Below are positions 53,732-64,000 of a DNA stretch of 64,000 bases, piece by piece. The stretch covers positions 217,787 to 281,786 of the forward strand of contig JAXLUM010000005.1 of the NCBI GenBank assembly GCA_046329515.1, given 5' to 3'. The notes beneath the pieces are model-generated. The model searched no databases, had not been told where the DNA came from, and saw nothing but the letters and a program-made list of their open reading frames with translations. The first letter of the stretch is position 1. Every line of letters begins with the position of its first letter. This DNA is from Chitinophagales bacterium. GTDB lineage: Bacteria > Bacteroidota > Bacteroidia > Chitinophagales > LD1. The translations under genes were made by a program, and so were the position numbers.

Positions 53732-55726
53732 ATGATAATTGAAGCTACCTTAGAAGATGTTGCCAATCAAGTAAGAAGACAAATTGAAAATGGCTGTAGT
53801 ACCGCTGTATTAATAGGTTCAGGCTGCTCCGCGTCAGCAGGAATTCCCACTTCTGATGGTATCGTGCAGGATATTGAAAATGATCCTGGGCTAAAGCGGT
53901 TTATAGAAAAATGCGATGTAAAGGACCTTCCTAATTACATGAGAAAACTTTCTCTTCACGATCGCAAGCTTTTAATGGAGAGATATATAAATCGTTCGAA
54001 GTTAAATTTAGCCCACATTTTTCTTGCATCATTAGTGCGCAATGGCTTTGTTGACTGTGTTTTGACAACCAATTTTGACAATCTGGCATTGAAAGCGCTT
54101 ACCACGTTAAACCAATTTCCTGCAGTTTATGATTTGGCTGCAACATCAGGGTATTTGAGCGGTTCTTTAACTTTTCCAGCAATAATTTATTTGCACGGAC
54201 AGCATACTGGTTGGAGATTAATGCTGACTGATCCTCAAATGCAATCATTAAAAGAAGCAATAACTAAAGCTTTAACTAAAATTTTAGAGAAACACACATT
54301 AATAATTGTTGGTTATAGCGGTAAGGATCCGGTGCTTGATGCCCTTGCAAGTATACCGGAGTTCGGCCATAAAGCTTATTGGGTCAATTATAAAGAAAGA
54401 CTTGAAGAACATGTTGAAAAAGCTTTGTTTAATGATTTCTCTGAAACGGTGGAAGTACTGTTTAACTATGATGCAGATAAATTTTTTGTAGAGCTCCACA
54501 GAAATTTGGAAGCAAAAGTCCCACTACTATTTACAGAACCTCTAGAGCACTTAAAAGAAACTTACGAGTTAGTGTCTAAGGCTCTAAAGTTAGGCGATGA
54601 GGAAATGGATTTAATGGGTGGAGCTAAAGAAACAATAGAACGAGCAAGAAACTTTCTCGAAGAAGAAAAATCTGCTCAATCTTTTCAGAGGGGCAACCCA
54701 ACACCTGAAGATTTAAAAGCAGCGGCCTTAGAGGCACTTTTGTCATGGAAAACACATAATCCGGATGATTTGTTTGATGCCATTAAAAAGAACGGCGATC
54801 AGACAGTGAAAGAACAACTGGCAATTGCTTTTGCTCAAAGAGCATTTGATAATACTGGAAAGATATCAATACAAGACGTTCTTAGGGATTATGATAAGGC
54901 AATTGAGTTAGCTCCAAACTATTCATTGGCTTATTTCAACAGAGGAATTATTTATTCCAATATAAAAATGCCGGAAATTGCGCTACAAGATTATAACCGG
55001 GCAATAGAACTGGGATTTACTTTGCCGGATGTTTATAATAACCGAGGAAGCGCACATTTTGAACTTGATGATTTTGAGAATGCAATGAAAGATTATCTAG
55101 AAGCTATAAGGCTCAAATCAGACTTCGCCTCTCCATATTACAATATAGCTAATATATATAAAACGCGTAAAGAGGATGAGGTTGCCTTAGAGTATTATAA
55201 CAAAGCATTGGAAGTTAATCCTGATTATTTCTTAGCATATATAGGTAGAGGGAAATACTATTTCGATAGCCAAAGGTTCGAAAAAGCGCTTCAAGATTTT
55301 ACAACTGCGATAAAATTAAAGCCTGCTAATGCGGAATATCATACTTTAAGAGGTTCAACTTACGTTGAACTTGGAAAGTATGACTTAGCCCTCAGGGAGT
55401 TCGATTATGCAATTAAGATTGATCCCCATTTTGTATTAGCTTTTAATAATCGCTCAAATTTGTTGCGTTTACAGAAACGGTGGGATGACGCCCTTTCCGA
55501 CATTAAATTTGCTCTTAACTTAGATCCCGAGTACTCTTATGCTTATGCTACGTTAGCAGAAATATATGCAATGCAAGGGAACAGTCAAGAATTCTACAAA
55601 AATATCCAAATAGCTTTGGAAAAAGGTTGTCCTGTATGGAATCTTCTGGAGGATGAAGCTTATACTAATTACAAAAACGAGTCAGAGTTTAAGGCTCTAC
55701 TGGAAAAATATAAGTCCAAGGAATAA
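53732..55726 (+). CDS. SIR2-like (SIR2_2) NADase domain fused to about 8 TPR repeats
   Basis: AVLIGSGCSASAGIPT, VLTTNFDNL, IIYLHGQ, IIVGYSGKD. Then 34-aa TPRs (AYFNRG...DYNRAIEL etc.) and a terminal helical cap. AT-richer than its neighbours. Confidence 0.9.
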   Translation: MIIEATLEDVANQVRRQIENGCSTAVLIGSGCSASAGIPTSDGIVQDIENDPGLKRFIEKCDVKDLPNYMRKLSLHDRKLLMERYINRSKLNLAHIFLASLVRNGFVDCVLTTNFDNLALKALTTLNQFPAVYDLAATSGYLSGSLTFPAIIYLHGQHTGWRLMLTDPQMQSLKEAITKALTKILEKHTLIIVGYSGKDPVLDALASIPEFGHKAYWVNYKERLEEHVEKALFNDFSETVEVLFNYDADKFFVELHRNLEAKVPLLFTEPLEHLKETYELVSKALKLGDEEMDLMGGAKETIERARNFLEEEKSAQSFQRGNPTPEDLKAAALEALLSWKTHNPDDLFDAIKKNGDQTVKEQLAIAFAQRAFDNTGKISIQDVLRDYDKAIELAPNYSLAYFNRGIIYSNIKMPEIALQDYNRAIELGFTLPDVYNNRGSAHFELDDFENAMKDYLEAIRLKSDFASPYYNIANIYKTRKEDEVALEYYNKALEVNPDYFLAYIGRGKYYFDSQRFEKALQDFTTAIKLKPANAEYHTLRGSTYVELGKYDLALREFDYAIKIDPHFVLAFNNRSNLLRLQKRWDDALSDIKFALNLDPEYSYAYATLAEIYAMQGNSQEFYKNIQIALEKGCPVWNLLEDEAYTNYKNESEFKALLEKYKSKE

Positions 55727-56859: not shown

Positions 56860-57867
56860 TTATTTGGGGATAATAATAGTGCCGTAACTACTGGCGTAGC
56901 CCGCCCATATACCCAAGCCGTTGCTGATGTTGCTCTTAATTTTTACAGGAGAAGAAAAGGGGCTATCGCCACCATCATTCTCCAGTGTATAGAAGAAGTC
57001 GTACGTCTTGTTATCAATATTGCCCCACTTAACGGTAACGGTATCGCCCTTCCAAAAGTAGCTATCGGTATTAATGTTGAAGTCAGCTCCTTTGCGCTGG
57101 CCGCGTTCCACCGGTAAACCAATGCTAAGGCCAACAAACAGCTTATCGTCGTACACTGAGCCGCCAATCGGGGTATAGAAAGGTTCATTGTTGCGCTTGG
57201 TCCAGTAGCGCACAAAGTTGCCGAAGGTATCGGGCACGCTGAAGTAGGCATACACCGCCACCATAGAATCAGCATACTGCGGGTTAGGGTGCGGCCTAGT
57301 AGTAAGCGAATCAATACCTATAACGGTTGTAATACTGGTGGAAGCGGTTACATGTATACTATCCTGCCCGTCGTTTAAAGGCGGCGACATAACATCGAGA
57401 TTATACGTTGTGCGTTCCTTACCCATAAAGCTGCAACTACCGGTGGTAAAGTAAGTGGCAATATCAGGCACGGTGTACACGCAAACGTTGGGTATCTGGG
57501 CGCTATCAATAGAGGTAAAGCCAAAAGCATTCAGTACTATCTCCTGCTGTTCAGGCGGCAGGTTAAGGTTTTGCAGGCATAGTTCCACCAATTCTGTTTG
57601 GGTGCCGTCGCTGGCGCTAACGTGCACGGTTGCGCCATGTACAAAGTAGCTGCCTATGTCGTTAATATTCACATTATCAAAAAACTTACTGCTTTTGGTA
57701 AGTATAACTACAGGGGGCACATCGTTTTCAATGGTTCCTTCTACCACTACCTGGCGTGCGCTATCGGGTATATTAATATCAATAACCTTGGTGCAGCTTG
57801 TAATAGTAGCCGTGGCTAACAGCAGCAGTAGTACCGGTATATTTCTGTATTTGCTCAGCACGTTCAT
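56860..57867 (-). CDS. DUF4249-family lipoprotein
   Basis: Lipobox ITSCTKVIDINIP, VVEGTI, C-terminal SNISNGLGIWAGY. Directly downstream of a TBDR. Confidence 0.85.
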   Translation of the reverse strand: MNVLSKYRNIPVLLLLLATATITSCTKVIDINIPDSARQVVVEGTIENDVPPVVILTKSSKFFDNVNINDIGSYFVHGATVHVSASDGTQTELVELCLQNLNLPPEQQEIVLNAFGFTSIDSAQIPNVCVYTVPDIATYFTTGSCSFMGKERTTYNLDVMSPPLNDGQDSIHVTASTSITTVIGIDSLTTRPHPNPQYADSMVAVYAYFSVPDTFGNFVRYWTKRNNEPFYTPIGGSVYDDKLFVGLSIGLPVERGQRKGADFNINTDSYFWKGDTVTVKWGNIDNKTYDFFYTLENDGGDSPFSSPVKIKSNISNGLGIWAGYASSYGTIIIPK

Positions 57868-57868
57868 A

Positions 57869-60253
57869 TTAAAATTTAAAATTCCAGGTTACAGAAGGTA
57901 ATATAGGGAACAGTGAGGCCTGCTTGGCTTTAAACTGGAAACCGCCATTGTTGCTTTCACCGGGGTCGCCCTTAGGGTCAATGTAAATAAAGTAAGGGTT
58001 CATGCGGTTGTACGCGTTGTAAATAGAAACAGAGATATCAGAATAGAAATCAACCTTGCGTTTCTTCTTAGGTATAATAACGTAAATGAAGCCGAGGTCT
58101 AAACGGTGGTATGGCGGCAGGCGGTACCAGTTTCTATCGCCATATACAAAGTGCGGTTGCCCTTCGTTAAGGAAGAAGGCCACAGGCAATGTAGTACGCT
58201 GGCCGGTTGCAAACACAAAGGTGGCCGATACCTTCCAGTGTTTATTAATCTCAAACATGTTCACGATGCTTAAATCGTGGCGGCGGTCGTATTTAGCCAA
58301 AAATGCTTTGCCATTATTAATATCAGGAAACTGTCTCCAGGTCCATGCAAGGGTGTAGCCTATCCAACCTGTCCAGCGGCCCTTGGCCTTCTTTACAAAG
58401 AACTCAGCGCCATAGGTCCAACCCTTACCATAGGTAAACAGGTCTTCAACATCCACCGTAATATTGCCTACAGCGCTTTCGCCGTATTCAATCTGGTTCC
58501 AAAGGTGTTTATAGTAGACCTCAACACTGGTTTCAATCATGTCATCCTTAAAGTTGCGGAAGTAACCCACTGAAGCCTGCAGACCTATTTGCGGTTTAAC
58601 GGCTTTGGTGCTTGGCACCCATAAGTCAACAGGTAGTGTAGTAGTGCTGCTGCTTACCAAGTGTATGTATTGCTGATTAAGCGTTACCCCTGCTTTAATG
58701 GAAGATGTTTTATCTACCTTAAAGCGCATAGCAAGGCGTGGTTCAAGCCCCCAGTACGTAGCAATATGCTGGCCCACTTTATAATTAAGGGTATCAATAG
58801 CGCGGCCATCCTGAAATACAATTTTGTTGAAGGGGCCCATGAAGTTGAACATAGAGCCACGCAGGCCAATGTTTATTTTCAGCCAATTGGTGGCTTCAAA
58901 ATCATCAAGGAAGTAAATAGCAGTTTCATGCGCATACTTCTTGGCCTGGTTAGTGGTTTTAAAGTCAACATCACCTGCTTTGCCGCTGGCTTGGTAAGGC
59001 GTAAATATGTGGAAGTTATACTGCCAGCCGAACTTCATGCGGTGGCCTAACAAAGGCGAGTAATCAAAATCCATTTTGCCGGTAAACTCTCTAACGCTTG
59101 AGTTCAAACCGAACTTTATATCCATAAAATCGGCATTGGCCTTAAAGCCAAAGTCGTTATAAATAAACATGGTGTTAAGGAACAGCTTATCGTTAAACAG
59201 GTGGTTCCAACGCATGGTGGCTGTTGCATTGCCCCAGGGGAAGTCTAACTTAAAGTTGCCACCGGGATCCTGAAACTTAAACACATCTCTACCGAAGTAG
59301 CCGCTTAAATACAGGCGGTCTTTATCATTAATGCGGTAGTTAATTTTCGCATTTATATCGTAGAAGTAATAGGAGTTGCCTGCAAACTGGCCATCGCCTA
59401 ATTTAGGTAAAATAGGTTTCAGCAAAAGGTCGATGTAGGTTCTGCGGGCGCTGATAATAAAGGAGCATTTATCCTTTTTAATGGGGCCCTGCACGGTAAG
59501 GCGGCTGGAGATTAAGCCAATGCCACCCTCCACATTCCATTTCTTCATGTTGCCCTCTTTCATCTGCACATCAACTACCGATGAAATCCTTCCGCCATAA
59601 TCAGCAGGCATACCGCCTTTAATAACGGTGGTGTTCTTTACGGCATCACTATTAAACACACTAAAGAAGCCAAACAGGTGGCCTGTGTTATACACCACGG
59701 CATCATCCAACAATACCAGGTTTTGGTCGGGTCCACCACCGCGCACATAAAAGCCGCTGTTACCCTCACCGGCGCCTTGTATGCCTGGTAGTAATTGTAT
59801 TGTTTTTAAAATATCCACTTCGCCAAAAAGCGCAGGCAGGGCCTTGGCCTGTTCCACCTGCAACTCCTGTTTGCCCATGTCCGTACTTTCCACGTTTTGG
59901 TCCTTACGGTCGGCAGTTACAACTACTTCTTTGGTTTCAACCGAGGTAGTGGCAAGGTCAATATTCAGGCGTATGTCTTTATTCAGTTCTACCTTCTCCT
60001 CCTTTGTGCCTAAGCCAACGTAGCTATAGCGTACGGTGTAATTACCCTGCGGCAGCGTTATAGAGTAAAAGCCGTAATCATTACTGGTAGTGCCGCGCCC
60101 TAATTCAACAATGTAAACAGCTGCGGCAAGCAGGCTTTCGCCGTTGGCTGCTTCTTTTACATAACCGCTAATAGTGTATTTGGGCTGTTGCGCCTGGCTA
60201 AAGGAATAGCTACATAGAAATAACAACAAAACGGCACTAAAAAATCTCTTCAT
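57869..60253 (-). CDS. TonB-dependent receptor
   Basis: GEVDILKTIQLLPG, VRGGGPDQNLVLLD, NTGHLFGFFSVFN, RLPPYHRLD, terminal WNFKF. Start placed at MKRFF. TATTTTTG box on the minus strand at 60284-60291. Confidence 0.93.
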   Translation of the reverse strand: MKRFFSAVLLLFLCSYSFSQAQQPKYTISGYVKEAANGESLLAAAVYIVELGRGTTSNDYGFYSITLPQGNYTVRYSYVGLGTKEEKVELNKDIRLNIDLATTSVETKEVVVTADRKDQNVESTDMGKQELQVEQAKALPALFGEVDILKTIQLLPGIQGAGEGNSGFYVRGGGPDQNLVLLDDAVVYNTGHLFGFFSVFNSDAVKNTTVIKGGMPADYGGRISSVVDVQMKEGNMKKWNVEGGIGLISSRLTVQGPIKKDKCSFIISARRTYIDLLLKPILPKLGDGQFAGNSYYFYDINAKINYRINDKDRLYLSGYFGRDVFKFQDPGGNFKLDFPWGNATATMRWNHLFNDKLFLNTMFIYNDFGFKANADFMDIKFGLNSSVREFTGKMDFDYSPLLGHRMKFGWQYNFHIFTPYQASGKAGDVDFKTTNQAKKYAHETAIYFLDDFEATNWLKINIGLRGSMFNFMGPFNKIVFQDGRAIDTLNYKVGQHIATYWGLEPRLAMRFKVDKTSSIKAGVTLNQQYIHLVSSSTTTLPVDLWVPSTKAVKPQIGLQASVGYFRNFKDDMIETSVEVYYKHLWNQIEYGESAVGNITVDVEDLFTYGKGWTYGAEFFVKKAKGRWTGWIGYTLAWTWRQFPDINNGKAFLAKYDRRHDLSIVNMFEINKHWKVSATFVFATGQRTTLPVAFFLNEGQPHFVYGDRNWYRLPPYHRLDLGFIYVIIPKKKRKVDFYSDISVSIYNAYNRMNPYFIYIDPKGDPGESNNGGFQFKAKQASLFPILPSVTWNFKF

Positions 60254-60521
60254 TGGCTGGCTGAGCTTACAAGTAACGGGCGGCAAAAATAGTAACTTAC
60301 AAAAGCAGGCAGGGCATTTTGTAATATAAATTATTACGCTTTATGCTATTCTACCAACGGTAGGTAAAAGCAGTAAAGTGAGGCGGTAAAACATGATTTA
60401 AAATTGGTGCATTATTTTTTTGTTAAACCCCAAAAACATATGTGTCAGGAATTTGTTAAATCAAGATATTCAGTAACTTCGGGAACTTTTCTAATTAAAA
60501 AACAACTTCACACCCCAAAAA

Positions 60522-62213
60522 ATGAACAAACTCTACACCTTCATTCTTATGGTTTTTGCTGCAACCATCGCAAATGCGCAAACTCCTTTTGAACGTGTTT
60601 ACACCATTTTAAATACCAAATGTCAAAACAGCAACTGCCATAGCTCAACGGCTACTGATGGTTCGCAGGCTTTGTTATTTACCGGTACACAAAGTGATGT
60701 TTACAATGCTATTTACGAGGTAACCCCGGGCAACGTAAACTCAGTAAACAAACATGAGAAGCTGGTTAAAGCCGGCCACCCTTACATGAGTTTTCTGTTG
60801 CGTAAAATGGCAGGCTCAGGCTTTGATACTGACTTAAGCCTTGATGCCGGCGAAGGTGATTTAATGAAGGACATAAACAACACTGCGCTAACCAATAAAG
60901 AAATTGAGTTCGTTCGCCAGTGGATAATGTATTCAGCCAAACAAACATATGGCACTAATGACCCTAAGCCCGATTGGCAAACCGTAAGTGATTATTACGA
61001 TGCGCCAAACCTTCCTTTTTTACCTAAACCTGCAAAACCAGCAGCAGGCACAGGTTTACAGTTCCGTATGGGCCCTGTGTTTGTGCCGGTAACCGGTGCA
61101 AGCGAGCAGGAATGGTGCTTACAGCAGGAAGTAAACTTCCCTTACCTGCCACAGGTAGAACGTATTGAGGGTTTCATGAACCAGCAATCGCACCACTTTC
61201 TATTATTTAAGTTTGATGATTCAACCTCTGCCGCTGACCGTGGCTTTGGTATGTATAAAATAAGCCTTACCAGCGGCACTACTTCTTTTGACGGCAGCAA
61301 ACAGTTAACCAGCGCCTGGCAGGATGATGCTGAATTTTCATTGCCTACAGGCACAGCGCTTTTTTGGGGTCAAAAAACATATCTTGATATGAACTACCAT
61401 ATTAAGAACTACGCTGCTACTGATGTTTTACCATGCGATTTCTACTATAACATTTACTTTCAGCCGCGTAACCCTAACACTATTGAAATGAAAGCAAACC
61501 TGGTAAACAATGCCACTTTGCTTTTACCACAGGGTTCACAAAGCCGCGACTATGATGACCCGGCTAACAACGGCGCAAAAGAATGGCGTTATATCTGGAA
61601 TATGACGTCGCACACCCATAAGTACGGCAGCGATTACGACATTTACAGAAGAGATACCACAGGCGCTATTGCTGATAAGTTGTACGAAGGCTTTTGGGAT
61701 TACACCAATAACTTCGACAGAGGTTATTATGATTGGGAACATCCATCAACTGAATACTTCCCTACTTTCTTACCGGTTAAGTTTGGTAAGCACAACGGCC
61801 AAAAAGCAGGTTTAGTAGCCCGCACCACATGGGATGTGCAACAACCACTGGTAACTTTTGGTTTTACCACTAACGATGAAATGCAGTTGTTCTACTACTT
61901 CTACACCAACCAACTGCCTGATGGCCTTAATGCCATTAATGATGATAAAGGCAAGCAGATATTCTTCCAGGTTATGCCTAACCCTATGAACGGCAATGGC
62001 CGCCTGGTTTACCAATTAGATAATGCCGCCAAGGTACAGGCAAGCGTGGTTGATGTTACAGGTAAAACTGTTGCTGAATTAGCCGAAGAAAACCAAACTG
62101 AAGGCATGCACGAAATTACCATGGGTAACGAGCAGCTTTCAAAAGGTATTTACTTTGCCAAGCTTGTTATTAACGGCAGCGTTTACAGCAAAAAATTTAT
62201 TGTTACTGAATAA
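60522..62213 (+). CDS. T9SS-secreted cytochrome-c-like / copper type II (PHM-like) monooxygenase fusion
   Basis: Signal peptide; C34-x4-C39-H40; H224-H225, H293, H364-x-H366, M454; CTD FQVMPNPMNG...LSKGIYFAKL. Confidence 0.82.
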   Translation: MNKLYTFILMVFAATIANAQTPFERVYTILNTKCQNSNCHSSTATDGSQALLFTGTQSDVYNAIYEVTPGNVNSVNKHEKLVKAGHPYMSFLLRKMAGSGFDTDLSLDAGEGDLMKDINNTALTNKEIEFVRQWIMYSAKQTYGTNDPKPDWQTVSDYYDAPNLPFLPKPAKPAAGTGLQFRMGPVFVPVTGASEQEWCLQQEVNFPYLPQVERIEGFMNQQSHHFLLFKFDDSTSAADRGFGMYKISLTSGTTSFDGSKQLTSAWQDDAEFSLPTGTALFWGQKTYLDMNYHIKNYAATDVLPCDFYYNIYFQPRNPNTIEMKANLVNNATLLLPQGSQSRDYDDPANNGAKEWRYIWNMTSHTHKYGSDYDIYRRDTTGAIADKLYEGFWDYTNNFDRGYYDWEHPSTEYFPTFLPVKFGKHNGQKAGLVARTTWDVQQPLVTFGFTTNDEMQLFYYFYTNQLPDGLNAINDDKGKQIFFQVMPNPMNGNGRLVYQLDNAAKVQASVVDVTGKTVAELAEENQTEGMHEITMGNEQLSKGIYFAKLVINGSVYSKKFIVTE

Positions 62214-62236
62214 GCGTAACTACTTAAATAAAACAG

Positions 62237-62264
62237 AAACGCCCTGCAATTGCGGGGCGTTTTT
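62237..62264. terminator. Bidirectional terminator
   Basis: AAACGCCCTGCA-at-TGCGGGGCGTTT, with A and T runs on either side, between convergent genes. Confidence 0.8.
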
Positions 62265-63223: not shown

Positions 63224-64000
63224 TTAAAAAAGCTCGCAAACCACGCGGTTTATCTCCCACCAACTGTTGGAGTATTCCGTTTTATTAAGGTAAAACTCAA
63301 TAGCTACCGTTTCGCGGCGGCTTCGCTTGCCTTTTTCTCTTTGCGTTTTAAAAGTTACGTTACAGTTAACGTAGGCAGTGCCTGCTTCTTTATCTATTTC
63401 TACATTTATAAAATCGTAGTTAACCAGCACCATGCTAAAGTAACGGCTCTGAAAGTCCTTTACCTTTTCGCGCAACTCGTCAGGGTCGGTTGAAAGGCCA
63501 AGGCTATCCTTCATTTCCTCGCTAAAGTGGTCTTCAAAAAAGTTACTCTGCGTATCGAACAAGCTCATTAGGGCATAATGCGCTGCATTCTTAACATCGT
63601 AGTCCGCATTAGGGTGAAACTCTTCGTAAATAAACTGGTTTATCCAGCCTTTAATTTTTATATCCTCAATCTCCTGCTTAAAAAGTTCCTCTGTTATAAA
63701 GCGGTAAATTTCGCGGTCGGGCGTGGGGGCTAACACATCAAGGCCAACGCGGTGCTTAGCCATTATTTTCATCAGCCGGCGCAAATCGCACCGCACTTCT
63801 TTATCGCTTAGGTCGTTAACGTGGTTGTACTCCGGTTCGCCTATGTACTTATACACGCTTATTAACTTCGACTCATTGTGCTGTTTGTGGAAGTTCATAA
63901 TCTGTTTCAGGAACTGATTTTCCACATCTGGAGGAATATCCTCACTGCCTACAAAGTCTCCGCCAAACTCTGCCATCATTTTCAGCTTCAGAAAATCGTT
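63224..64000 (-). CDS. Hypothetical protein, probably 5'-partial
   Basis: The frame stays open from the ORF-track start at 63979 to the window edge (NDFLKLKMMAEFGG...). No recognised family. Confidence 0.75.
   Translation of the reverse strand, partial: NDFLKLKMMAEFGGDFVGSEDIPPDVENQFLKQIMNFHKQHNESKLISVYKYIGEPEYNHVNDLSDKEVRCDLRRLMKIMAKHRVGLDVLAPTPDREIYRFITEELFKQEIEDIKIKGWINQFIYEEFHPNADYDVKNAAHYALMSLFDTQSNFFEDHFSEEMKDSLGLSTDPDELREKVKDFQSRYFSMVLVNYDFINVEIDKEAGTAYVNCNVTFKTQREKGKRSRRETVAIEFYLNKTEYSNSWWEINRVVCELF

What the first reader, a model, noticed from the sequence alone, without database searches (positions are those of the whole stretch)
60522..62213. Secreted heme-c / bicopper monooxygenase fusion: a possibly self-reducing extracellular PHM-type enzyme
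Seen: after the signal peptide comes a domain with CQNSNCH (CX4CH), a candidate distal Met (GDLM115) and a closing helix LTNKEIEFVRQWIMYSA. Next are HH(224,225), H293, HTH(364,366) and EM454, then a type-A T9SS CTD. Established: rat PHM uses H107/H108/H172 (CuH) and H242/H244/M314 (CuM), the same order and similar spacing, and it needs external ascorbate. The N-domain pattern resembles planctomycete-type cytochrome c domains. Inference: the heme feeds electrons to the Cu sites, giving a self-contained oxidase exported beyond the outer membrane. It could hydroxylate or amidate peptides, amines or polymers, by analogy with the CDH-LPMO pairing but in one chain. Substrate unknown.
Basis: partly seen in the sequence, partly recalled or inferred. 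Interest (0 to 1): 0.8.

Follow-up and report, generated by a model that had tools for sequence, protein, structure and literature searches.

The report
Secreted cytochrome-c–fused PHM-type copper monooxygenase
This gene encodes an exported bacterial protein that joins a haem-c cytochrome domain to a two-copper oxygenase of the kind that makes amidated hormones and noradrenaline in animals; it belongs to a large family that nobody has studied, and its built-in cytochrome probably replaces vitamin C as the electron supply.

Summary

- **Catalytic core:** the AlphaFold model of the core (about residues 175-466) matches rat PHM and human DBH, and nothing else comparably (Foldseek E 1e-12, 304/304 columns). 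A family profile finds PHM by sequence (E 2e-6). It aligns HH224/225, H293, H364/H366 and M454 with PHM H107/H108, H172, H242/H244 and M314.
- **Ligand conservation:** these residues are kept in 127-129 of 131 diverse family representatives.
- **N-domain:** it is a divergent class-I-type cytochrome c. C-Xn-CH is invariant with n = 2, 3 or 4 in the same column. The distal Met is usually kept, and is otherwise often Cys or a nearby His. The three members without CH also lack the Met. In 36 of 46 relatives the N-domain hits cytochrome-c Pfam models.
- **Export and haem attachment:** the type A T9SS C-terminal domain scores above cut-off. The genome carries a cytochrome-c assembly (PF01578) gene, probably System II.

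It is a haem-to-copper relay enzyme but not "self-reducing", because it has no reductase module. PHM's peptidylglycine-binding Arg240 and Asn316 are absent, so the substrate is unknown. Haem binding, inter-site distance and activity are untested. I rate it a new variant of a known kind.

The parts
60522..62213 (+). Whole gene: 563-aa secreted cytochrome c / PHM-like bicopper monooxygenase / T9SS CTD protein (stop codon 62211-62213)
   Evidence: single copy in the genome
60522..60578 (+). Sec signal peptide (residues 1-19, A-N-A | Q); the mature N-terminal Gln fits the Bacteroidota 'Q-rule' (own knowledge)
   Evidence: read from the sequence; AQT conserved in relatives
60579..61016 (+). N-terminal all-helical domain (residues 20-165): divergent class-I-type mono-haem cytochrome c
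   Evidence: AF2 pLDDT 91. In 36 of 46 relatives the N-domain hits Cytochrome_CBB3, and in 29 of 46 PSCyt1. The profile hits the hydrazine synthase alpha haem domain, FoxE and cytochrome c6. Foldseek found nothing significant.
60621..60641 (+). Putative haem c attachment motif C34-Q-N-S-N-C39-H40 (CX4CH)
   Evidence: Invariant. The same column holds CX2CH (43), CX3CH (27) and CX4CH (55) among 131 representatives.
60864..60866 (+). M115, candidate distal haem ligand (G-x-x-M, followed by the L-T/S-x-x-E-I-E-x-I-R-Q-W-I helix)
   Evidence: Met in 110 of 131 representatives. Replacements are Cys in 5, often a nearby His, and other residues in the rest. It is lost together with the CH motif in 3 of 3 cases. 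It aligns with the Met region of cytochrome c6.
61044..61478 (+). PHM-like beta-sandwich domain 1 (about residues 175-319) carrying the CuH-type site H224, H225 (61191-61196) and H293 (61398-61400)
   Evidence: Foldseek hits PHM/DBH. The HMM alignment puts SHHF on PHM VHHM (H107/H108) and LNYH on LQVH (H172).
61479..61919 (+). PHM-like beta-sandwich domain 2 (about residues 320-466) carrying the CuM-type site H364, H366 (61611-61619) and M454 (61881-61883)
   Evidence: Distant relatives pass the Pfam Cu2_monoox_C cut-off.
61920..61973 (+). Flexible linker to the CTD (residues 467-484; pLDDT below 50 for 468-478)
61974..62210 (+). Type A T9SS C-terminal sorting domain (residues 485-563)
   Evidence: PF18962 and TIGR04183 above cut-off. 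Twelve other ORFs in the genome carry a similar CTD.
62235..62264 (.). Strong hairpin plus T-run between this gene and the convergent accD: a likely bidirectional terminator, so the gene is probably monocistronic
   Evidence: 13-bp stem, 7 G-C pairs

Best explanation
The gene encodes a three-module exported enzyme. After Sec export, the cell's cytochrome-c assembly machinery (a PF01578 protein, probably System II) would attach one haem c to C34/C39 of the N-terminal cytochrome domain, with H40 and M115 as axial ligands (inferred). The central region is a PHM/DBH-type non-coupled binuclear copper monooxygenase with a CuH-type site (H224, H225, H293) and a CuM-type site (H364, H366, M454); the fold and ligand homology are shown. 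The folded holo-protein is then carried across the outer membrane by the type IX secretion system through its type A CTD. It would be released or tethered to the cell surface (inferred from what is known of T9SS). In catalysis the haem takes single electrons from an external donor and passes them to CuH. CuH reduces CuM, where O2 is activated to hydroxylate a C-H bond of a substrate (inferred by analogy with PHM/DBH). The fused cytochrome would thus take over the role of ascorbate. The substrate is unknown. It is probably not a glycine-extended peptide, because the PHM residues that hold the C-terminal carboxylate are missing.
For: - Fold: the top 25 Foldseek hits are all PHM or human DBH (E 1e-12, TM(target) 0.66, 304/304 columns) from a model with pLDDT 83.
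- Sequence: family profile A2 hits PHM at E 2e-6 and aligns all six copper ligands and the DEM motif. Distant relatives exceed the Pfam Cu2_monoox_C cut-off.
- Ligand conservation: 127-129 of 131 representatives keep each ligand.
- Haem motif: C-Xn-CH is invariant, with n = 2, 3 or 4 in one column.
- Distal ligand: Met in 110 of 131 representatives, Cys in 5 and often a nearby His among the rest. All three members lacking CH also lack the Met (hypergeometric p about 0.004, my arithmetic).
- Cytochrome homology: the seven Pfam families hit most often by relatives' N-domains are all c-type cytochromes (Cytochrome_CBB3 36 of 46, best 1.6e-5; PSCyt1 29 of 46, best 1.9e-6). The PDB profile hits are almost all c-type cytochromes, led by the hydrazine synthase alpha haem domain at E 9e-4.
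- Haem attachment: the genome has a Cytochrom_C_asm (PF01578) ORF of 857 aa above cut-off.
- Export: the CTD is above cut-off.
- Domain packing: the stretch joining the cytochrome and copper domains is conserved (Y159, P173, G178) and modelled at pLDDT of about 90. This suggests fixed docking rather than a floppy tether.
Against: - The window's own protein hits no Pfam cytochrome or Cu2_monooxygen model, even at E <= 1. Homology is transitive, through relatives and profiles.
- The N-domain model has no significant structural match (best Foldseek E 1.6).
- CX4CH is a rare haem motif, and attachment by a Bacteroidota System II has not been shown.
- No model coordinates were available, so the haem-CuH distance and copper-site geometry were not measured.
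- No electron donor is known on the outer surface of Bacteroidota.
- No conserved neighbouring gene points to a substrate or donor.
Confidence: 0.65

Rival explanations
1. The N-domain binds no haem. C34 and C39 form a disulfide, or together with H40 and M115 they bind Cu(I). The domain would then be a structural cap or a copper-loading (chaperone-like) module for the PHM-like core, which would take electrons from soluble reductants as PHM does from ascorbate.
For: The window protein's N-domain has no Pfam hit (member 1) and no significant structural neighbour. Cys/Cys/His/Met is also a plausible Cu(I) ligand set (own knowledge). The spacing between the cysteines varies.
Against: The His directly after the second Cys is invariant. 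In 36 of 46 relatives the N-domain hits cytochrome-c models, and no copper-chaperone model appears. The PDB profile hits are c-type cytochromes and align both the CXXCH helix and the Met/C-terminal helix region. Met is replaced by Cys or His at the distal position, as happens at haem axial ligands. The genome has a cytochrome-c assembly gene.
Confidence: 0.12
2. The haem and copper sites are real, but the protein is not a substrate hydroxylase. It would act as an extracellular O2 reductase or H2O2 generator, or as an electron-transfer protein. It could, for example, feed peroxide to other secreted oxidative enzymes or dispose of electrons at the cell surface.
For: No substrate-binding residues of PHM are kept (R240 and N316 replaced). 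No partner or substrate-related neighbour is conserved. The extra modules in longer relatives are only Ig/PKD/fn3/SprB spacers, never substrate-binding modules.
Against: The complete CuM set including the Met is kept in 127 of 131 representatives. In PHM and DBH this set is tuned for substrate-coupled O2 activation (own knowledge; PMC9064607 abstract on tight coupling). Y458, the equivalent of PHM Y318, is invariant in the close clade.
Confidence: 0.15
3. The protein is a non-enzymatic surface protein (an adhesin or binding protein) that merely retains a PHM-like scaffold.
For: A few family members have degenerate copper sites (P0184, P0208, P0232, P0267). Many relatives carry adhesin-like Ig/SprB repeats.
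Against: The window protein and about 97% of representatives keep all six ligands plus the haem motif. Such conservation is not expected for a scaffold.
Confidence: 0.05

Closest known systems
Peptidylglycine alpha-hydroxylating monooxygenase (PHM; rat PHMcc, e.g. PDB 1PHM/1SDW/3MLL)
   Same: It has the same two-beta-sandwich fold (Foldseek E 1e-12). All six copper ligands are positionally homologous, and the DEM and EHP motifs are shared.
   Different: Identity is only about 17%, and the window protein has no Pfam hit. PHM's disulfides are absent. R240 and N316, which grip the peptide carboxylate, are T362 and L456 here. It has an added N-terminal cytochrome c domain and a T9SS CTD. It is bacterial and extracellular, and the electron donor is presumably the haem rather than ascorbate.
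Dopamine beta-hydroxylase / MOXD / tyramine beta-monooxygenase (PDB 4ZEL)
   Same: The catalytic core is shared (Foldseek E 1.7e-12). These enzymes also have an extra N-terminal domain ahead of the copper core.
   Different: The DBH N-domain is a beta-sandwich DOMON domain, not a helical c-type cytochrome. DBH also has a C-terminal dimerisation domain instead of a secretion CTD.
Lipoprotein-type 'monooxygenase' / 'Copper type II ascorbate-dependent monooxygenase C-terminal domain-containing protein' of Cytophagales (Runella, Spirosoma, Larkinella, Fibrella and others)
   Same: The two-module architecture is the same (C-Xn-CH cytochrome domain plus HH...H...HxH...M core), at 22-25% identity overall (27-31% over the matched stretches).
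   Different: These proteins are about 450 aa with a lipoprotein signal and no T9SS CTD, so they probably stay in the periplasm or at the outer membrane. They pass the Pfam PF03712 cut-off, whereas the window's clade does not. None has been characterised as far as my searches show.
Cytochrome-c-tethered copper nitrite reductases (three-domain NirK) and caa3 oxidase subunit II
   Same: Conceptual precedent (own knowledge): a class I cytochrome c fused to a copper enzyme as a built-in electron entry point. 2YEV_B appears among the weak profile hits.
   Different: The copper domains are cupredoxins with different chemistry, and there is no homology to the PHM core.
Cellobiose dehydrogenase - LPMO system
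   Same: A haem domain delivers single electrons to an extracellular copper oxygenase.
   Different: CDH has a flavin dehydrogenase that generates the electrons, and its cytochrome is b-type on a flexible linker. The window protein has no electron-generating module, and the linker between its cytochrome and copper domains looks ordered.

Membership tests
Copper type II ascorbate-dependent monooxygenases (PHM/DBH/TBM; Pfam PF01082 + PF03712) | Two-domain beta-sandwich catalytic core fold | tested here: met
   The top 25 Foldseek hits are PHM/DBH, E 1e-12, covering 304/304 PHM columns. The model has pLDDT 83.
Copper type II ascorbate-dependent monooxygenases (PHM/DBH/TBM; Pfam PF01082 + PF03712) | CuH site: HH motif plus a distal His (PHM H107, H108, H172) | tested here: met
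   The profile-to-PHM alignment pairs H224/H225 with H107/H108 and H293 with H172. These are kept in 128-129 of 131 representatives.
Copper type II ascorbate-dependent monooxygenases (PHM/DBH/TBM; Pfam PF01082 + PF03712) | CuM site: HxH plus a distal Met (PHM H242, H244, M314) | tested here: met
   H364/H366 pair with H242/H244 and M454 pairs with M314. These are kept in 127 of 131 representatives.
Copper type II ascorbate-dependent monooxygenases (PHM/DBH/TBM; Pfam PF01082 + PF03712) | Scores above the curated Pfam cut-offs | tested here: not met
   The window protein has no PF01082 or PF03712 hit at E <= 1. PF03712 passes only in distant relatives (25-32 bits against 23). PF01082 was never hit.
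Copper type II ascorbate-dependent monooxygenases (PHM/DBH/TBM; Pfam PF01082 + PF03712) | Ascorbate as electron donor; about 11 Å solvent-filled gap between the two coppers | not testable with these tools
PHM proper (peptidylglycine specificity) | Arg240 and Asn316 (with Tyr318) binding the glycine carboxylate and backbone | tested here: not met
   R240 corresponds to T362 (family S/T/Q) and N316 to L456 (family L/I/V). Y318 corresponds to Y458, conserved only in the close clade.
Class I c-type cytochromes (Cytochrome_CBB3 / PSCyt1 / Cytochrom_C) | CXXCH haem attachment motif at the end of the N-terminal helix | tested here: met
   It is present as the CX4CH variant. The same alignment column holds the canonical CX2CH in 43 of 131 relatives and CX3CH in 27.
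Class I c-type cytochromes (Cytochrome_CBB3 / PSCyt1 / Cytochrom_C) | Distal Met followed by a C-terminal helix that packs on the N-terminal helix | tested here: met
   M115 is Met in 110 of 131 representatives, with Cys or a nearby His among the alternatives. It aligns with the 'GNM...LSxEEIxxVxxYV' region of cytochrome c6.
Class I c-type cytochromes (Cytochrome_CBB3 / PSCyt1 / Cytochrom_C) | Significant match to curated cytochrome c models or structures | tested here: inconclusive
   The window's own N-domain has 0 Pfam hits. Of 46 relatives, 36 hit Cytochrome_CBB3 (best E 1.6e-5) and 29 hit PSCyt1 (best 1.9e-6). PDB profile hits reach E 9e-4. Foldseek found nothing significant.
Class I c-type cytochromes (Cytochrome_CBB3 / PSCyt1 / Cytochrom_C) | Covalently bound haem; a maturation system in the organism | tested here: inconclusive
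   A PF01578 (CcsA/ResC-type) ORF of 857 aa scores above cut-off in the genome. Covalent haem itself cannot be tested in silico.
Type A T9SS cargo proteins | C-terminal sorting domain above cut-off plus an N-terminal Sec signal | tested here: met
   PF18962 scores 39 against 27 and TIGR04183 41.4 against 23. The signal peptide was read from the sequence.
Type A T9SS cargo proteins | T9SS machinery (GldK/L/M/N, SprA, PorU/V) in the same genome | not tested
Indirect evidence: 12 other ORFs in the genome carry a similar CTD.

The most novel reading that the evidence does not exclude
This would be the first PHM/DBH-class copper monooxygenase that does not depend on ascorbate. A covalently fused c-type haem would be hard-wired to CuH, and the enzyme would work outside the cell on the Bacteroidota surface. 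It would be driven by an as-yet unknown extracellular or outer-membrane electron donor and would hydroxylate an environmental substrate (polymer, peptide or aromatic amine). The wider family (at least 207 clusters at 50% identity at E <= 1e-30 for this clade, plus more than 2000 lipoprotein-type relatives) would be a previously unrecognised bacterial branch of oxidative copper enzymology.
Probability: 0.45. Interest if true: 0.75.

Novelty: new variant of a known kind. Interest (0 to 1): 0.62.

Why it matters
PHM and DBH are textbook non-coupled binuclear copper enzymes known essentially from animals. How electrons reach CuH and cross to CuM is still debated, and the enzymes need ascorbate. 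A natural bacterial version with a haem wired to the copper core would give a spectroscopic handle and a defined electron entry point for studying that transfer. It would show that this chemistry is widespread in environmental Bacteroidota. It could also yield ascorbate-independent hydroxylases or amidating enzymes for biocatalysis. Finally, it raises the question of what supplies electrons to redox enzymes displayed by the T9SS outside the outer membrane.

Tried and rejected
- **Direct Pfam, NCBIfam and PDB sequence searches** with the window protein found only the CTD. The close-clade profile A1 against the PDB also found only CTDs. Homology to PHM appeared only with the wider profile A2 and by fold.
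- **Foldseek on a separate, confident N-domain model** gave no significant hit. The close-clade N-domain profile A4 gave only a spurious Fpg hit.
- **Gene neighbourhood:** the TonB-dependent receptor, DUF4249, trxB and accD neighbours are shared only with the three closest relatives, so I rejected a functional link. Other relatives sit among unrelated housekeeping genes. The only recurrent neighbour is a LuxC-like gene (19 of 57 loci), and its meaning is unclear.
- **Extra domains in longer relatives** are only Ig/PKD/fn3/SprB spacers, so they give no clue to the substrate.
- **Four literature searches** found no paper on a cytochrome-c-fused or T9SS-secreted PHM-like enzyme.
Full report
**1. 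The observation**

The frame 60522-62213 (+) is open from its first ATG and encodes 563 residues.
- C34-QNSN-C39-H40
- G112-D-L-M115
- the helix L123...A139
- H224/H225, H293, H364-T-H366 and E453-M454

The C-terminal 485-561 matches the T9SS sorting domain above the curated cut-offs (PF18962 39 bits against 27; TIGR04183, type A, 41.4 against 23). The N-terminus reads as a Sec signal peptide cleaved A-N-A|Q. Nothing else in the protein is recognised by Pfam or NCBIfam, or by a direct sequence search of the PDB.

**2. A real, conserved family**

A word-indexed search found 246 relatives. Nearly all are about 560 aa, from Chitinophagales or other Bacteroidota MAGs, and are named only 'T9SS type A sorting domain-containing protein' or 'hypothetical'. 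An exhaustive HMMER search of 1.84 billion cluster representatives found 207 clusters at E <= 1e-30.

In 26 relatives down to 44% identity, C34, N36, C39, H40, H224, H225, H293, H364, H366, H407, E453 and M454 are invariant, and M115 is at least 90% conserved.

In 131 representatives at 30-45% identity the copper-ligand columns read as follows:

| Ligand | Conserved in |
|---|---|
| H224 | 129/131 |
| H225 | 129/131 |
| H293 | 128/131 |
| H364 | 127/131 |
| H366 | 127/131 |
| M454 | 127/131 |

The gene is single-copy in its genome. It occurs in 18 of 401 sampled genomes of the phylum, and one genome has four paralogues. All 58 loci from GTDB species genomes are from MAGs.

**3. The central region is a PHM/DBH-type bicopper core**

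- **Fold:** an AlphaFold2 model built on the family alignment (pLDDT 83.3, pTM 0.73) was searched against the PDB. The 25 best hits are all rat PHM or human DBH (best 3MLL, E 1e-12, TM normalised to PHM 0.66, all 304 PHM columns aligned). The next hits are at least five orders of magnitude weaker.
- **Sequence:** an HMM of a wider alignment (A2, which includes distant relatives) hits PHM chains at E 2e-6 over both PHM domains.
- **Ligand mapping:** I counted along the printed alignment for 1SDW chain A, where chain index + 42 gives PHM numbering. Family SHHF lies on V-H107-H108-M. L-N-Y-H lies on L-Q-V-H172. S-H-T-H-K-x-G lies on V-H242-T-H244-H-L-G. D-E-M lies on D-E-M314. The E-H-P motif (H407 here) is also shared. 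All six ligands are therefore positionally homologous.
- **Pfam:** distant relatives pass the Pfam Cu2_monoox_C cut-off (25.3, 30.3, 31.8, 26.5 and 23.1 bits against 23). The window protein itself does not, so it fails the formal Pfam membership test while meeting the structural and ligand tests.
- **Substrate residues:** PHM's substrate-gripping R240 and N316 correspond to T362 and L456 (family-wide S/T/Q and L/I/V). Only Y318 (Y458 here) is kept, and only in the close clade. PHM-like substrate recognition is therefore not expected.

**4. The N-domain is a divergent c-type cytochrome (strong indirect evidence, no direct proof)**

- **Cysteines and motif spacing:** only two Cys are invariant in the protein, C34 and C39, and the second is always followed by His. 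Across the family the same alignment column carries CX2CH, CX3CH or CX4CH. Among 131 representatives the counts are 43, 27 and 55. One more is CX5CH, two are CX6CH, and three have no motif.
- **Distal ligand:** about 75 residues downstream, a Met in 'E-G-x-x-M-(P)' is present in 110 of 131 representatives. The replacements include Cys (5 cases, 'PCPQ') and several cases with a His one to three residues away. Met, Cys and His are the residues that ligate haem iron.
- **Co-loss:** the three members that lost the CH motif (P0145, P0164, P0170) all lost the Met too, while keeping all copper ligands. The chance of that is about 0.004 (C(21,3)/C(131,3), my arithmetic).
- **Pfam scan of N-domains:** I scanned 46 N-domains individually. 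The seven most frequently hit families are all c-type cytochromes: Cytochrome_CBB3 in 36 (best E 1.6e-5), PSCyt1 in 29 (1.9e-6), Cytochrom_C in 21, Haem_bd in 17, the CTI N-terminus in 9, PccH in 6 and Cytochrom_C550 in 6. The window's own N-domain hits none.
- **PDB profile search:** a profile of these domains retrieves almost only c-type cytochromes. The best are the C-terminal haem domain of hydrazine synthase alpha (E 9e-4, whole domain), FoxE (1.4e-3) and cytochrome c6 (6.7e-3). In cytochrome c6 both the CXXCH helix and the 'M...LSxEEIxxVxxYV' segment align.
- **Haem attachment machinery:** the genome encodes an 857-aa ORF matching Cytochrom_C_asm (CcsA/ResC type) above cut-off.
- **Against:** a confident separate model of the N-domain (pLDDT 91) has no significant structural neighbour (best E 1.6; cytochromes appear only among the weak hits). 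Apo-models of cytochromes c often lack the haem cavity (own knowledge), so I count this test as inconclusive rather than negative.

**5. Architecture and context**

- **Domain packing:** the segment joining the two redox modules is conserved (Y159, F166, P170, P173, G178) and modelled at pLDDT of about 90. The link to the CTD is disordered (468-478, pLDDT below 50). This suggests a fixed cytochrome-copper docking, unlike the mobile cytochrome of CDH (inference).
- **Longer relatives** insert only Ig/PKD/fn3/SprB spacers before the CTD, as is typical for surface-displayed T9SS cargo.
- **Transcription unit:** the gene is followed by a strong hairpin terminator (62235-62264). A 235-bp intergenic region precedes it, shared with a divergent TonB-dependent receptor gene.
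- **Neighbours:** the receptor, DUF4249, trxB and accD are shared only with the three closest relatives. Elsewhere the gene sits among unrelated housekeeping genes. No partner gene identifies the donor or the substrate. In 19 of 57 loci a LuxC-like gene lies immediately upstream on the same strand.

**6. The sister family**

Relatives at 22-25% identity overall (27-31% over the matched stretches; about 450 aa, lipoprotein signal, no CTD) have the same cytochrome-plus-PHM architecture. There are more than 2000 of them. They occur in cultured Cytophagales (Runella, Spirosoma, Larkinella, Fibrella and others) and are already labelled 'monooxygenase' or 'Copper type II ascorbate-dependent monooxygenase C-terminal domain-containing protein'. 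The copper half of the superfamily is thus visible to databases. The haem half is not annotated, and I found no publication on either form.

**7. Mechanism**

- **Shown:** the PHM fold, homologous copper ligands, cytochrome-c-like N-domain signatures, the export signals, and a cytochrome-c assembly gene in the genome.
- **Inferred:** haem c is attached in the periplasm and copper is loaded there. The folded protein is exported by the T9SS. The haem accepts one electron at a time from an outside donor and reduces CuH. CuH reduces CuM, which activates O2 to hydroxylate a substrate C-H bond.

Closer analogies are cytochrome-c-tethered NirK, or the extra N-terminal (DOMON) domain that precedes the DBH core.

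**8. Verdict**

This is a new variant of a known enzyme class: PHM/DBH-type chemistry with a fused c-type cytochrome, secreted by the T9SS, in an uncharacterised and sizeable bacterial family. Interest is moderately high. The main uncertainties are covalent haem binding, the donor and the substrate.

Two earlier first-reader notes of this scan on relatives in other genomes proposed the same PHM-like copper sites. They agree with this reading but are not independent evidence.

Noticed in passing
window 53732-55726 (+): A 664-aa protein combines an N-terminal SIR2_2 (SIR2-like) domain with a long TPR array. SIR2-like domains occur in anti-phage defence systems, so this could be a defence or signalling protein.
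   Followed up: no
window 56860-60286 (-): A CarboxypepD_reg/Plug TonB-dependent receptor (805 aa) and a DUF4249 lipoprotein (335 aa) lie divergent from the studied gene. The adjacency is kept only in the three closest relatives, so it is probably not functionally linked.
   Followed up: yes
L034, L040, L042, L046, L048, L056-L060, L062, L066, L069-L072, L080, L082 (upstream of the match); also L002 6933-7970: In 19 of 57 relatives' loci, a gene of about 340 aa with a weak LuxC (acyl-CoA reductase-like) hit lies upstream on the same strand. It is directly adjacent (gaps of about 10-140 bp) in 18 of them, often with ddl further upstream. This could be a co-transcribed partner or just conserved local synteny.
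   Followed up: partly
L038 (6001-7755 and 7950-9677), L069 (5992-7701 and 7874-9610), L083 (4096-5748 and 5977-7680); genome G167: Tandem duplicates of the gene occur in several MAGs, and one genome has four paralogues. This suggests diversification, perhaps of substrate specificity.
   Followed up: no
Family representatives P0124, P0138, P0191, P0246, P0264: The distal haem-ligand position is Cys in a 'PCPQ' motif instead of Met. This may be His/Cys-ligated haem, as in SoxA or TsdA-type cytochromes, which would imply a much lower potential or a different role.
   Followed up: no
Family representatives P0145, P0164, P0170 versus P0184, P0208, P0232, P0267: Three members lost both the CH motif and the distal Met but keep all copper ligands. 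Four others keep the haem motif but have degenerate copper sites. These are natural 'half-enzymes' that could serve as controls.
   Followed up: partly
L085 6165-6941 and L086 6143-6916; L087 4184-6088: In Salmonirosea and Larkinella, a class I O-methyltransferase (Methyltransf_3) lies directly upstream of the lipoprotein-type relative on the same strand. In Runella, an MbnP / MbnH-like (CCP_MauG) pair lies about 1 kb upstream. These may hint at aromatic (catechol) chemistry or copper handling.
   Followed up: no
window 63224-63979 (-): A 251-aa ORF has no Pfam match and is not shared with the relatives' loci examined.
   Followed up: no
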